Origin: Trypanosoma brucei
Lineage: Eukaryota
Length of the DNA stretch: 64,000 nucleotides
Direction: 5' to 3'
NCBI GenBank assembly: GCA_000002445.1
Contig: CP000069.1
Span: 1,280,001 to 1,344,000, forward strand
The notes beneath the pieces were generated by a model. The model was given only the letters and a program-made list of their open reading frames with translations, ran no database searches and was not told the origin of the DNA. This document shows, piece by piece, positions 3,077-5,580 of the stretch. Position numbers and translations under genes: made by a program. Position 1 is the stretch's first letter, and each line of letters starts with the position of its first letter.

Positions 3077-4295
3077 AGAGCTACCCCCACATACGGGAAG
3101 GAGAAGGAGAAGGAAGGATAAAGGGAATCGATAGCATCAAAAAGAAAAATTTATGGCAGAAAGTTCAGCGACTTCGCATCTTTAAAATTAGCACACTGTG
3201 GGGAAGTGTGCTGTTCCGTCTCCTGTATACTGTGCTGTGACGACTCTGAAGGAGTAAAGGAAAACATCAGAACGGAGGGAGTCATACGTTGTACATAACG
3301 AAGAGATTCTCAACAACACTCATCAACAACAAAAGGCATTCCAAGATATTCCACAGTAGTGGCCAGCCATCTTGGAATGGCTTCTATTAACTCCGACGAG
3401 AAGACAAGAAGAAGAACTGAAAGAATACGAGACCTTTTATTCATCTGCGTGGTGTCGCTCGTAATGTGAGCCTATTGTTGTAGGAAGTTGGAAATAGTTC
3501 ACCACTAAAGGCTTTCAGACGCCCAAACGTGAAATCACACGTATTGTGTTGCACGGGGACGCCCGCTTGCTTCTTGTGTTCTTACGTCGGTAGGGATACT
3601 TCTTGGACATCACAGCAGTGAGTGTTTTGGAGCGCTTTGATGTCATCATGGCGCACTGTCACTGAGTGGAGTGTGGGATGTTGTTGCCTCGCATGGTCTC
3701 TCGTCGACTCCAGCGCTTGGTGTGTGGCGACGCCGCGGCACAACTTCTGTGTGCTAACTTTTGGAGCTATTCTTGTAACTTTGTGCTGAGTGACCCTCGG
3801 GGACACACATCCTGCTTCAGATCTTCACGCAGGGAAATAGGTGCACCTTCTCCCCTTGGGCCAACACGGGAACGAAGTGCGGTGGGGAGGGTGTGTGGAT
3901 CCGCTGCAGGGGATGCAGGCGGCGGCGCTCTCGGCGGTTGACCCGGTACGCGGAGAAATGCACTTTGGCCACCAGAGCCTCAGCAGTGCTCCACCGTGAG
4001 CCGTCTGCTGTACGGTTGATGTTCACTTACGTGTCGCTTATATTAAGAGCTTTTGTGTGGATGGTACTGCTGATTGCCTGTGTGCGCAGTCCGAGGGCTA
4101 CCAAGGGTGATGTGCAGCTGGAAGGGCATTGGCTGTGCGCCACAGGGTGGGTCGGCGCTTTTGCCTTTCCGTTGCAGTCTGATGCTAGCGGCATGCCCCG
4201 CTTGGCTTTTGGCTGCCGGCGGGCGCGCGGGACAGCGGGGCCTAGTGACTCCGTAAGGCAGCCGTCAACAGCGGGACCCGCACTGGACTGAGCCA

Positions 4296-4579
4296 CTTTT
4301 ATTTTATTTTATTTTAGCCGTGTGCGTGTTACTCGCCAGTTAATGGGCTGTCGTTTGTTTACCTGGTAGTTGTGTTCAACGCTGGTGGGGCGCCGGGTGT
4401 CGGGGGTGGTTGGCTTATGTGCTGACTGAATTCCGTTAGGCTGGGTAGCCTATGCTTTTATAGTTTAGTTGGCATTGTATCTTCACCGTCCGCCGCTGAC
4501 GGCCCACCTTAGTGGTCGGTAGCTGTTTGCTATCTGCGGGAGGCTGCCGATGTCGTTTGCGGTGAATGTTTCGAATGTT

Positions 4580-4622
<43 letters not shown>

Positions 4623-4640
4623 AAGGGAGATGTGACCAAA
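4296..4640. promoter_or_regulatory. GT-rich tract upstream of the first + strand gene; candidate start region of the polycistronic unit
   Basis: Strongly G+T-skewed sequence ending in (GT)18. It sits at the 5' edge of a co-directional gene array with ~2.5 kb of gene-free DNA upstream. GT-rich tracts are reported to drive Pol II initiation in T. brucei. Confidence 0.25.
4585..4620. repeat. (GT)18 dinucleotide microsatellite
   Basis: gtgtgt... run read directly. Confidence 0.95.
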
Positions 4641-4817
4641 CACTGTTGATTGTGTTGCTACTTTCGCTGCGTTTCATATTTCAATGGTATGCTTAATTAC
4701 AGCACATTATCAATATCATTTAAAAAATCGCTTCATATATATCTATATGAACTTGTTGATATATTCGTGCGTTCGTTCGTGTATGCGATGAGGTTGAAAA
4801 AAAAAAAGTGCACCGCC

Positions 4818-4829
4818 GGGGGGGGGGGG
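4818..4829. repeat. G12 homopolymer
   Basis: ccgccgggggggggggga read directly. Confidence 0.9.
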
Positions 4830-5580
4830 AATCGGCCACGGTACCCCTTTCGCGTGACGTTCCGAAGTTTCAGTCACTGATGTTAGTGAGACGGCCGGTT
4901 ATTTAATGCACCGACCAGGCTGATGCATTAAATGGACCCCAAAATTATTTGTTGGTGGGTGCTTTTCTGATCGGGACGTGAGATGTGTGATGAAATTTCT
5001 TTGGTCTACCATCGTTGTTTTATCTGCTGCGCTGGCACGTGGTGGGTAAAGTTAATTGACTGGCATTTGGAATTCAGGACACCTGAAGTGTATTTGTTTT
5101 GGGATTATAGCCTAACTGTCACTGTTGACTCATATATAGTGCATTGTTGTGTGGTGCCTCCATGTCAGGGTTCTTCTCCATGGATGGTAGCGTTTTTTTG
5201 TGTTTATATTGTTTGCGTTCACCTGTTGATATTTTGTTGGATGATCTAACTGCGTGTTTAAGGGGGAAAACATTAGCATGTTTTCTCCATCTTGCGATCC
5301 CTTTCAGCGATTTGATTGATGCTAATTATGTATGATGACAAAAGATGGTGAGGAAAAGAAAAACTTTTGGTTTGTGATTGTTCCTGCGCTACTACCCCTG
5401 TGGTCGAACGTGTTGCTTTTATTTATTAATCGCTATCTTTTGTTGAAGAAACTCGTGGCTGTATGCGGTTGCATCTGGAAGGGTGCCGAATTGCGTATAC
5501 TTCACTGCTAGAAACATTTCCCGGGGAAGGTTACCGCATGCGTACTTCTAACCAGCCTTTTTTTCCCTGCTGTTGATGTG

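What the first reader, a model, noticed from the sequence alone, without database searches (positions are those of the whole stretch)
3100..5580. Gene-free 2.5 kb with GC-rich island, GT-rich tract, (GT)18 and G12 upstream of the first gene: candidate transcription-unit start
All 25 downstream genes are + strand, and nothing convincing is encoded here. The interval contains an unusually GC-rich ~700 bp block (3600-4300). A strongly G+T-skewed segment (4296-4640) ends in (GT)18. A G12 run lies at 4818-4829. In T. brucei, Pol II initiation regions lack canonical promoters but are marked by GT-rich sequence and H2A.Z/H4K10ac nucleosomes; G-runs are common at strand-switch regions. The retroposon upstream is on the other strand, which also fits a boundary.
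Basis: partly seen in the sequence, partly recalled or inferred. Interest (0 to 1): 0.5.

Follow-up and report, generated by a model that had tools for sequence, protein, structure and literature searches.

The report
Known trypanosome divergent transcription start region

Summary
The window is T. brucei TREU927 chromosome 6, 1,280,001-1,344,000, and the first gene is glutamyl-tRNA synthetase Tb927.6.4590.

The upstream neighbours are on the minus strand, so this is a divergent strand-switch region. The head-to-head gene pair is conserved in T. melophagium and Leishmania mexicana. Kolev et al. 2010 list Tb927.6.4580->3410 (-) and Tb927.6.4590->5200 (+) as 'Divergent' putative Pol II transcription units. 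They report 5'-triphosphate RNA read enrichment at such sites.

The interval has no protein gene but is transcribed. It matches their low-abundance, spliced-leader-capped, polyadenylated transcript Tb6.NT.74 (window 2986-5427).

The G12, (GT)18 and G+T skew match the GT-rich coding-strand signature of Wedel et al. 2017. However, similar runs recur along the whole gene cluster, so they do not mark the start specifically.

The upstream retroposon is real: a Pr77 hallmark on the minus strand sits inside a 2-kb dispersed repeat.

Verdict: already known, low interest.

The parts
55..66 (-). G12 run on the minus strand (C12 on +). It lies on the coding strand of the leftward gene cluster, about 160 nt upstream of the 5' end of Tb6.NT.73 (window -103).
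   Evidence: It ties for the longest G run in the window with 4818-4829, on the opposite strand. It is C9 in T. b. gambiense and T. b. equiperdum.
538..2500 (-). 2-kb dispersed repeat carrying the 5' end of a degenerate retroposon and a 167-aa 'unlikely' ORF (1427-1930, -).
   Evidence: It is 94.8% identical over 1966 bp to T. b. gambiense chromosome 10 (L008 9603-11567), which also lies in a divergent strand-switch region. No Pfam domain was found in any minus frame downstream of the hallmark.
1812..1897 (-). Pr77 hallmark, the conserved 5' promoter/ribozyme signature of L1Tc/ingi-clade retroposons. It includes the CGTG downstream promoter element.
   Evidence: 34/35 identity to positions 11-45 of the T. 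cruzi L1Tc Pr77 oligo, at window 1879-1845, E=1e-12. The oligo sequence is from PMC1874656 and the DPE definition from PMC4748587.
2624..2648 (+). (GT)8TTTGGGGG, the nearest plus-strand GT/G element upstream of the first plus-strand splice acceptor. It is a candidate initiation-associated element.
   Evidence: The 2001-3000 bin holds two plus-strand Wedel 10-mer hits, whose positions were not printed. A role in initiation is inferred only.
2986..5427 (+). Published novel transcript Tb6.NT.74 (chr6 1282986-1285427, 2441 nt, 0.21 RNAs per cell). It is spliced-leader trans-spliced and polyadenylated, with no credible ORF.
   Evidence: Kolev 2010 Table S7. AG at 2984-2985 with TTTCTCCTC upstream. 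The coordinate offset of 1,280,000 was verified on three ORFs and a poly(A) site.
3600..4300 (.). GC-rich island (GC about 0.6) at the point where A>T skew flips to T>A. It is non-coding with no excess RNA structure.
   Evidence: ORF 3893-4291 has no homologue. RNA fold z=+0.56. CpG observed/expected is 0.75-0.92, so not enriched.
4296..4640 (+). G+T-rich tract (up to 0.70) beginning with (TTTTA)4 at 4297-4316 and ending in (GT)18 at 4585-4620.
   Evidence: Wedel 10-mers GTGTGTGTGG and TGTGTGTGGA match at 4613/4614. The repeat is (GT)10 in T. b. gambiense and (GT)11 in T. b. equiperdum.
4818..4829 (+). G12 run on the coding strand of the rightward cluster, preceded by A11.
   Evidence: CGGGGGGGGG and GGGGGGGGGG are the strongest coding-strand 10-mers at the 5' ends of start regions in Wedel Dataset EV1 (132 vs 17). 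It is G14 in T. b. gambiense and G10 in T. b. equiperdum.
5556..5574 (+). Polypyrimidine tract for trans-splicing of the GluRS mRNA. The poly(A) site of Tb6.NT.74 at 5427 lies about 130 nt upstream, as expected from coupled processing.
   Evidence: The coupling principle is stated in Kolev 2010.
5581..7404 (+). Glutamyl-tRNA synthetase Tb927.6.4590, first annotated ORF of the + transcription unit.
   Evidence: The protein is identical to TREU927 XP_845576.1. Gene ID and Table S14.

Best explanation
The interval is the plus-strand arm of a roughly 7.3-kb divergent strand-switch region on T. brucei chromosome 6. It lies between Tb927.6.4580 (minus strand) and Tb927.6.4590 (GluRS, plus strand). 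This is a known Pol II transcription start region of the dispersed, GT-rich type.

Proposed mechanism. Pol II initiates at many sites in a permissive, histone-variant-marked zone. Direction is biased by G/T-rich sequence on each coding strand. On the plus strand, at least part of initiation occurs upstream of window 2986, in the 3.09-kb core between the two first splice acceptors. The first AG with a polypyrimidine tract (2984-2985) receives the spliced leader. The RNA is polyadenylated at 5427, coupled to trans-splicing of the GluRS mRNA. A mirror-image transcript, Tb6.NT.73, does the same on the minus strand.

The GT tract, (GT)18 and G12 inside the interval probably help to maintain H2A.Z chromatin and add further sense initiation closer to GluRS.

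Shown: gene orientation, synteny, the published unit assignment, the published transcripts with their AG acceptors, and the composition asymmetry. Inferred: the exact initiation sites, any promoter activity of individual elements, and the chromatin state at this locus.
For: Identity and coordinates. The GluRS protein equals TREU927 XP_845576.1. Tb927.6.4590 is named GluRS. Window ORFs and a poly(A) site match Tb927_06_v4 coordinates minus 1,280,000.

Divergent arrangement. Minus-strand genes lie upstream in L002/L003. The 94/95-aa gene is 81-91% identical across T. brucei, T. melophagium and L. mexicana, and is head-to-head with GluRS in all three.

Published start region. Table S14 lists both units as 'Divergent'. 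The text reports 5'-triphosphate enrichment at every divergent unit and at all sites marked by variant histones.

Transcripts. Tb6.NT.74 and Tb6.NT.73 are in Table S7, each starting right after an AG. Transcripts lacking SL or poly(A) were excluded from that table.

Composition. Mirror G+T blocks sit at -1887..-388 (G+T 0.32-0.41 on +) and 3513..5612 (0.58-0.66). G12 runs lie on opposite coding strands at 55-66 and 4818-4829. Wedel 10-mers hit at 4613-4614 and 4817-4820.

Other species. A coding-strand G+T excess upstream of GluRS is also seen in T. melophagium (0.29 rising to 0.74), T. vivax, T. grayi and L. mexicana, which has (TG)5G9.

Literature. GT-rich elements drive directional initiation and H2A.Z deposition. 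Divergent regions of 5-10 kb contain two opposed promoters.
Against: No locus-specific ChIP-seq or 5'-triphosphate read profile could be inspected. Table S14 assigns units at the resolution of the whole strand-switch region.

G runs, GT repeats and G+T-rich kilobase blocks recur throughout the gene cluster, and Wedel 10-mer density in 4001-5000 (10 hits) is exceeded elsewhere (33 hits in 52001-53000). The features in the interval are therefore not specific evidence.

The splice acceptor at 2986 places some initiation outside the interval.

The 740-bp orthologous region of T. melophagium has no G run of 7 or more and no GT repeat of 5 or more units, so these microsatellites are not required for a start region at this gene pair.

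Staneva et al. 2022 found no shared motif under promoter peaks.
Confidence: 0.88

Rival explanations
1. The start region is real, but the elements highlighted in the interval ((GT)18, G12, GT tract, GC island) are passive. They would be generic coding-strand and microsatellite features of T. brucei intergenic DNA. The functional promoters would lie in the 3.09-kb core (window -102..2985). The interval would then be only the first processed, unstable leader RNA.
For: The SL acceptor at 2986 requires upstream initiation. G>=8 runs are 10 on + against 2 on -, and (GT)>=6 runs are 6 against 1, along the whole cluster. Similar G+T-rich blocks occur at 13901-15700 and 34701-36100. Repeat lengths vary freely between subspecies: (GT)18/10/11 and G12/14/10. 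T. melophagium lacks such runs.
Against: Tb6.NT.74 is about 50-fold less abundant than GluRS mRNA (0.21 vs 10.4 RNAs per cell). That is compatible with most productive initiation lying downstream of 2986. Synthetic GT-rich 10-mer arrays are sufficient for directional initiation and H2A.Z deposition. G10 is 132 vs 17 coding vs non-coding specifically in the first fifth of start regions. The two longest G runs of the window flank this core on opposite strands.
Confidence: 0.35
2. The Pr77-bearing retroposon remnant (1897-1812, minus strand) acts as a focused Pol II promoter for the leftward cluster. Its divergent or antisense activity would feed the rightward cluster. On this view the start region is partly retroposon-derived.
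For: The core is almost identical to the functional T. cruzi Pr77, including the essential CGTG element. It points toward Tb6.NT.73 and Tb927.6.4580. Copies on chromosome 10 (two, facing outward in a divergent region) and chromosome 11 also point with the adjacent genes. The literature proposes this role for Pr77 in strand-switch regions. Kolev et al. report sense and antisense initiation at all start sites.
Against: Promoter activity of T. brucei or degenerate Pr77 copies has not been demonstrated (one search says experimental evidence is still required). The first 10 nt of the hallmark are disrupted by an insertion here. The orthologous start region in T. melophagium and L. mexicana works without any detected retroposon. 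The orientation agreement rests on only four copies.
Confidence: 0.15
3. The GC-rich island or another part of the interval is a decayed or unannotated protein-coding gene or a structured non-coding RNA gene, and the interval is not primarily regulatory.
For: ORFs of 91-132 aa overlap in 3666-4291. The region is transcribed. Its SNP density between subspecies (5.7 per kb) is lower than in 2501-3599 (23-27 per kb).
Against: There was no significant Pfam hit, no homologue in 5.8 billion proteins, not even a paralogue or an annotation in sister strains, no Rfam hit and no excess folding energy (z=+0.56). ORFs occur in several frames on both strands, as expected from GC richness alone. SNP density equals that of the adjacent non-coding 4301-5427 (5.3 per kb), and the counts are small.
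Confidence: 0.04

Closest known systems
T. brucei divergent strand-switch transcription start regions with GT-rich dispersed promoters (Siegel 2009; Kolev 2010, PMC2936537; Wedel 2017, PMC5579346)
   Same: It lies between two divergent gene clusters and is listed as such in Kolev Table S14. It has G/T-rich coding-strand arms in mirror symmetry, long G runs and (GT)n-G motifs on each coding strand, low-abundance divergent first transcripts, and a size (about 7.3 kb) within the 5-10 kb typical range.
   Different: Nothing essential differs. Local peculiarities are a 700-bp GC-rich block at the inner edge of the plus arm and a retroposon-containing 2-kb repeat in the core.
Pr77-hallmark retroposons of the L1Tc/ingi clade (DIRE/SIDER/RIME-like remnants) accumulating in strand-switch regions (PMC1874656, PMC4748587)
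   Same: A 34/35 match to the Pr77 core with the CGTG element, located in a strand-switch region, in a dispersed multi-copy context.
   Different: No endonuclease or reverse-transcriptase coding capacity was detected. The 5' ten nucleotides are disrupted. Promoter function is untested.
Sequence-specific Pol II core promoters in T. brucei strand-switch regions (Cordon-Obras et al. 2022, Cell Rep 38:110221)
   Same: Same genomic setting: two oppositely oriented promoters inside a divergent region (as summarised in PMC11796357).
   Different: The paper is not held in the library, so its motif could not be compared with this sequence.
Mammalian CpG-island dispersed promoters
   Same: Broad, bidirectional initiation and a GC-rich block next to the start zone. 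Kolev et al. draw this analogy in general.
   Different: CpG observed/expected in the island is 0.75-0.92, no higher than the flanks. No cytosine-methylation logic applies. The similarity is by analogy only.

Membership tests
T. brucei Pol II divergent transcription start region | Lies between two gene clusters transcribed away from each other | tested here: met
   Minus-strand conserved genes lie upstream and plus-strand genes downstream. The arrangement is conserved in T. melophagium and L. mexicana.
T. brucei Pol II divergent transcription start region | Enrichment of 5'-triphosphate (primary) transcripts | tested here: met
   Published data only. Kolev 2010 Table S14 lists Tb927.6.4580->3410 and Tb927.6.4590->5200 as 'Divergent' units, and the text states enrichment at every divergent unit. 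The read profile at this locus was not inspected.
T. brucei Pol II divergent transcription start region | H2A.Z/H2B.V nucleosomes and H4K10ac/H2A.Z acetylation over 5-10 kb | not testable with these tools
   No ChIP-seq tracks were available, and no coordinates were found in the supplements searched. Kolev et al. state that their sites coincide with the histone-marked sites.
T. brucei Pol II divergent transcription start region | G/T-rich 10-mers over-represented on the coding strand at the 5' end of the region | tested here: met
   GTGTGTGTGG, TGTGTGTGGA, CGGGGGGGGG and GGGGGGGGGG x3 occur on + at 4613-4820, and the same G10 class occurs on - at 54-58. G+T is 0.58-0.70. These features are not specific, since comparable hits occur elsewhere in the cluster.
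T. brucei Pol II divergent transcription start region | Directional promoter activity in a reporter assay | not testable with these tools
   This needs an experiment of the Wedel 2017 type. Their tested fragments are from chromosome 10.
Pr77-hallmark retroposon (L1Tc/ingi clade) | 77-nt 5' hallmark with CGTG element at +25..+28 | tested here: met
   Window 1879-1845 (-) matches Pr77 positions 11-45 at 34/35, E=1e-12, with CGTG present. Positions 1-10 are interrupted.
Pr77-hallmark retroposon (L1Tc/ingi clade) | Endonuclease / reverse transcriptase coding region (autonomous element) | tested here: not met
   No Pfam family at E<=1 in the three minus frames of window 1-1930 or in the 167-aa ORF. 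It is therefore a degenerate or non-autonomous remnant.
Pr77-hallmark retroposon (L1Tc/ingi clade) | Poly(A) tail and target-site duplication | not tested
   No obvious minus-strand A tail was seen by eye in 1-1800. No systematic search was made.
Sequence-specific T. brucei Pol II core promoter (Cordon-Obras 2022) | Defined promoter motif with focused start site | not testable with these tools
   The paper and motif are not held.

The most novel reading that the evidence does not exclude
The 2-kb Pr77-bearing repeat is shared at 95% identity between divergent strand-switch regions on chromosomes 6 and 10, and its hallmark also appears on chromosome 11. It may be a portable, retroposon-derived promoter module that now drives or boosts polycistronic initiation at these loci. 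On this reading, its insertion split an ancestral compact GC-rich core, like the 740-bp region of T. melophagium, into the two GC-rich blocks seen today at window -840..510 and 3600-4300.
Probability: 0.12. Interest if true: 0.45.

Novelty: already known. Interest (0 to 1): 0.12.

Why it matters
It shows that a reader working from raw sequence alone can locate a trypanosome Pol II start region from gene strand, G/T skew, G runs and a retroposon. The locus itself adds nothing new, because the unit boundaries and the transcript that fills the interval were published in 2010.

The useful points are cautionary. The G12, (GT)18 and G+T skew are not specific to starts. The first splice acceptor shows that some initiation lies outside the flagged interval.

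The one mildly open question is whether Pr77-bearing repeats in strand-switch regions contribute promoter activity in T. brucei.

Tried and rejected
- Hidden protein gene. Pfam on ten ORFs and on three stop-masked minus frames found no significant hit. A homologue search of ORF 3893-4291 found nothing.

- RNA gene. ARAGORN and Rfam at gathering threshold and at E<=1 found nothing. Folding of the GC island gave z=+0.56.

- G-quadruplex. There is no (G3+N1-7)x4 motif in 1-6000 on either strand. G12 alone is too short for four G3 tracts.

- Repeats within the window. Self-BLAST found only microsatellite matches.

- A second retroposon hallmark at window 1-65 and about 360, which I had suspected from memory. 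Alignment to the real Pr77 oligo gave only chance-level scores, so this was dropped.

- Sequence conservation of the region across species. There is no significant similarity to T. melophagium, L. mexicana, T. vivax or T. grayi.

- CpG-island reading. CpG observed/expected is not raised.

- Exact look-ups. A look-up with a wrongly started GluRS (5647) failed; the second in-frame ATG is at 5659. Exact look-ups of the 167-aa and 132-aa ORFs failed.

- Start-region coordinate lists. None were found in Staneva 2021 supplements. Siegel 2009 and Cordon-Obras 2022 are not held. Wedel's tested fragments are from chromosome 10. 'Tb6.NT.74' occurs in no main text.
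Full report
OBSERVATION. Reading the sequence confirms every feature. (GT)18 occupies 4585-4620, within a TG-type array at 4576-4621. G12 occupies 4818-4829 and is preceded by A11. (TTTTA)4 occupies 4297-4316.

In 300-bp windows the block starting at 3651-4151 has GC 0.57-0.61, against a window mean of 0.476 (sd 0.055, 99th percentile 0.593). The only other 300-bp windows at 0.57 or above start at 1 (the SSR core), at 18951-19401 inside the ORF at 18688-19872, and at about 44.7, 45.8 and 49.2 kb. 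Plus-strand G+T is 0.58-0.66 from 3513 to 5612 and peaks at 0.70.

All ORFs of at least 150 aa downstream are on the + strand, apart from four nested inside larger + ORFs. G10 and (GT)8 occur far more often than in dinucleotide-preserving shuffles: 10 vs 0.04 and 20 vs 0.00.

No coding or RNA gene was detected in the interval. There was no significant Pfam hit (best E 0.12, below the curated cut-off), no homologue of the longest ORF in 5.8 billion proteins, no tRNA, no Rfam match at E<=1, no excess RNA folding energy in the GC island (z=+0.56) and no canonical G-quadruplex motif.

WHERE THE WINDOW IS. The first gene (5581-7404) encodes a protein identical to T. brucei TREU927 XP_845576.1 and to T. 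equiperdum glutamyl-tRNA synthetase. Tb927.6.4590 is that gene.

ORF coordinates in Kolev et al. 2010 Table S1 equal the window ORFs plus 1,280,000. These are Tb927.6.4600 ending at 1290687, Tb927.6.4620 at 1292360-1292971 and Tb927.6.4630 at 1292992-1294326. The GluRS poly(A) site at 1287462 sits 58 nt after the stop at window 7404. The window is therefore Tb927_06_v4 1,280,001-1,344,000, and the finding is 1,283,100-1,285,580.

SURROUNDINGS. Flanks from T. b. gambiense (L002; position 4439 = window 1) and T. b. equiperdum (L003) are 99.5-99.7% identical to the window. They extend 4.4 kb further left.

There the genes are on the minus strand: 407 aa, 141 aa (Tb927.6.4570 by its poly(A) site) and 94 aa (Tb927.6.4580 by inference). 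The 94/95-aa protein is 81-91% identical in T. brucei, T. melophagium and L. mexicana. In all three it lies head-to-head with GluRS, followed by the same helicase, ankyrin and phosphatase genes.

The divergent gene pair thus predates the Trypanosoma-Leishmania split. The gap differs greatly: 740 bp in T. melophagium, 3.8 kb in L. mexicana and 7.3 kb in T. brucei.

PUBLISHED EVIDENCE. Kolev et al. [quoted passage not shown] It also reports both sense and antisense reads.

THE INTERVAL IS TRANSCRIBED. Table S7 of the same paper lists two novel transcripts here.
- Tb6.NT.74: 1282986-1285427, +, 2441 nt, 0.21 RNAs per cell. This is window 2986-5427.
- Tb6.NT.73: 1279897-1278400, -, 1497 nt, 0.15 RNAs per cell. 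This is window -103 to -1600.

Transcripts lacking a spliced leader or a poly(A) tail were excluded from that list. Both 5' ends follow an AG. For Tb6.NT.74 the AG is at 2984-2985, with TTTCTCCTC about 20 nt upstream. For Tb6.NT.73 the minus-strand AG is at L002 4337-4336, after a CCTCCTCCC tract.

The poly(A) site at 5427 lies about 130 nt before the polypyrimidine tract of GluRS (5556-5574). That fits coupled polyadenylation and trans-splicing.

Two consequences follow. The 'gene-free' 2.5 kb is essentially the body of Tb6.NT.74. Some plus-strand initiation must lie upstream of 2986, in the 3,089-bp core between the two acceptors.

Tb6.NT.74 is about 50-fold less abundant than GluRS mRNA (10.4 RNAs per cell). 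This could reflect instability of a non-coding RNA, or most initiation lying downstream of 2986. The data I could reach do not separate these.

ANATOMY OF THE WHOLE REGION.
- Left arm, -1887..-388: A+C-rich on +, so G+T-rich on the minus coding strand. It coincides with Tb6.NT.73.
- GC-rich stretch, about -840..510, ending with G12 on the minus strand at 55-66.
- Compositionally neutral core, about 510-3500.
- GC island, 3600-4300.
- Right arm, 3513-5612: G+T-rich on +, with (GT)18 and G12.

The two longest G runs in the window (12 nt each) lie on opposite strands, each on the coding strand of its cluster.

In Wedel et al. 2017 Dataset EV1, GGGGGGGGGG is 132 vs 17 (coding vs non-coding) in the first fifth of start regions. 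GTGTGTGTGG is 18 vs 1, CGGGGGGGGG is 13 vs 1 and TGTGTGTGGA is 6 vs 0. All four occur on + at 4613-4820, and the G10 class occurs on - at 54-58. Wedel et al. showed that synthetic arrays of such 10-mers drive directional transcription and H2A.Z deposition.

SPECIFICITY. These features are not peculiar to the start.
- The window has ten G>=8 runs on + against two on -.
- It has six (GT)>=6 runs on + against one on -.
- It has other G+T>=0.57 blocks of 1.0-1.8 kb.
- Wedel 10-mer hits per kb are higher at 47-48 kb and 52-53 kb than in the interval.
- Repeat lengths vary between subspecies: (GT)18/10/11, G12/14/10 and C12/9/9.
- The compact T. melophagium region has no such runs. It still switches from G+T 0.29 to 0.74 around a GC-rich (0.58-0.72) centre.
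- L. mexicana has (TG)5G9 near the minus-gene side, and T. grayi and T. vivax are G+T-rich upstream of GluRS.
- No sequence similarity survives between species.

The conserved property is strand-asymmetric composition, not any particular element.

THE RETROPOSON. The 77-nt Pr77 oligo of T. cruzi L1Tc (PMC1874656) matches window 1879-1845 on the minus strand at 34/35 (E=1e-12). The match includes the CGTG downstream promoter element defined in PMC4748587.

The hallmark lies within the 167-aa ORF at 1427-1930 (-). That ORF's only relatives are 'hypothetical, unlikely' proteins of T. brucei subspecies. No endonuclease or RT domain is detectable, so it is a degenerate remnant.

Window 538-2500 is 94.8% identical to a segment of T. 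b. gambiense chromosome 10. That segment also lies in a divergent region, which contains a second, opposed Pr77-like match and (AC)66. A chromosome 11 copy shares only the roughly 200-bp 5' end at 79% identity. In every case the hallmark points in the direction of the adjacent genes.

The literature notes that such elements accumulate in strand-switch regions and speculates that Pr77 contributes to polycistronic initiation. It also says functional evidence outside L1Tc is lacking. My earlier suspicion of further hallmarks at window 1-65 and about 360 was not supported.

MECHANISM AND CONFIDENCE. That this is a divergent Pol II start region is close to certain, because it rests on orientation, deep synteny and published assignment. 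That the interval is the leader transcript Tb6.NT.74 is published and consistent with the sequence. That the GT tract, (GT)18 and G12 contribute to initiation or H2A.Z deposition is an inference from Wedel et al. I rate it about even against their being passive coding-strand features. A promoter role for the Pr77 remnant is possible but unsupported here (about 0.15).

The GC island has no demonstrated function. Its SNP density between subspecies (5.7 per kb) equals that of the neighbouring non-coding 4301-5427 (5.3 per kb). It is lower than in 2501-3599 (23-27 per kb). Counts are small, and part of the excess comes from a cluster in the T. equiperdum OVI contig near its end.

VERDICT. Novelty is nil and interest is low.

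Noticed in passing
window 5556-5661: GluRS has two in-frame ATGs, at 5581 and 5659. The polypyrimidine tract ends at 5574, and the first AG after it (5592) lies downstream of the first ATG, while AGs at 5510, 5528 and 5554 lie upstream. Alternative trans-splicing could therefore give a long form with a 26-aa basic N-terminal extension (MLRLANKFTVKISLISRLLKEIPFCV, which looks like a mitochondrial presequence) and a short 581-aa form. A 581-aa version exists among cluster members.
   Followed up: partly
window 538-2500; L008 9603-11567; L009 10442-10640: A 2-kb repeat is 95% identical between divergent strand-switch regions of chromosomes 6 and 10. Its Pr77-bearing 5' end (about 200 bp, 79% identity) also lies in a 10.7-kb gene-free gap on chromosome 11. 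The chromosome 10 region also has an opposed second Pr77-like match (L008 8844-8825) and (AC)66 at 8001-8132.
   Followed up: partly
window 2381, 4805-4818; L004 and L006 ends: Draft assemblies break in this region. The T. equiperdum OVI contig ends at window 2381 and has an N run at the G12 tract. The T. vivax and T. grayi contigs end 1156 and 229 bp upstream of GluRS.
   Followed up: no
window 3115-3216: A cluster of about 10 substitutions within 100 bp is seen mainly in T. equiperdum OVI. It raises apparent diversity in 2986-3599 to 23 per kb. The cause could be a local recombination tract, a paralogous conversion or assembly error.
   Followed up: no
window 50931-53829: There is a 2.1-kb ORF-free gap (51684-53829) with G9 runs at 50931 and 52591, C9 at 51540, (TG)11 at 51463, and the highest density of Wedel coding-strand 10-mers in the window (33 hits in 52001-53000). 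Kolev Table S14 shows no internal start here, and no novel transcript is listed.
   Followed up: no
L005 9261-10000 (T. melophagium): The orthologous divergent region is only 740 bp. It has an A-rich left arm, a roughly 300-bp GC-rich centre (0.58-0.72) and a T/G-rich right arm. It looks like a minimal version of the T. brucei architecture. This suggests the T. brucei GC-rich blocks at -840..510 and 3600-4300 may be halves of an ancestral centre.
   Followed up: partly
window 7634-10687, 12360-12971, 12992-14326: Kolev Table S1 lists Tb927.6.4600, .4620 and .4630 as having spliced-leader acceptors inside the annotated ORF, meaning misannotated start codons. This matches the different product lengths called in sister strains (1009 vs 966 aa, 203 vs 155 aa, 444 vs 366 aa).
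   Followed up: no
window 1-537: There are no substitutions between TREU927, T. b. gambiense and T. b. equiperdum IVM-t1 across 537 bp of the core next to the minus-strand G run. The adjacent 2-kb repeat has 12.7 per kb.
   Followed up: no
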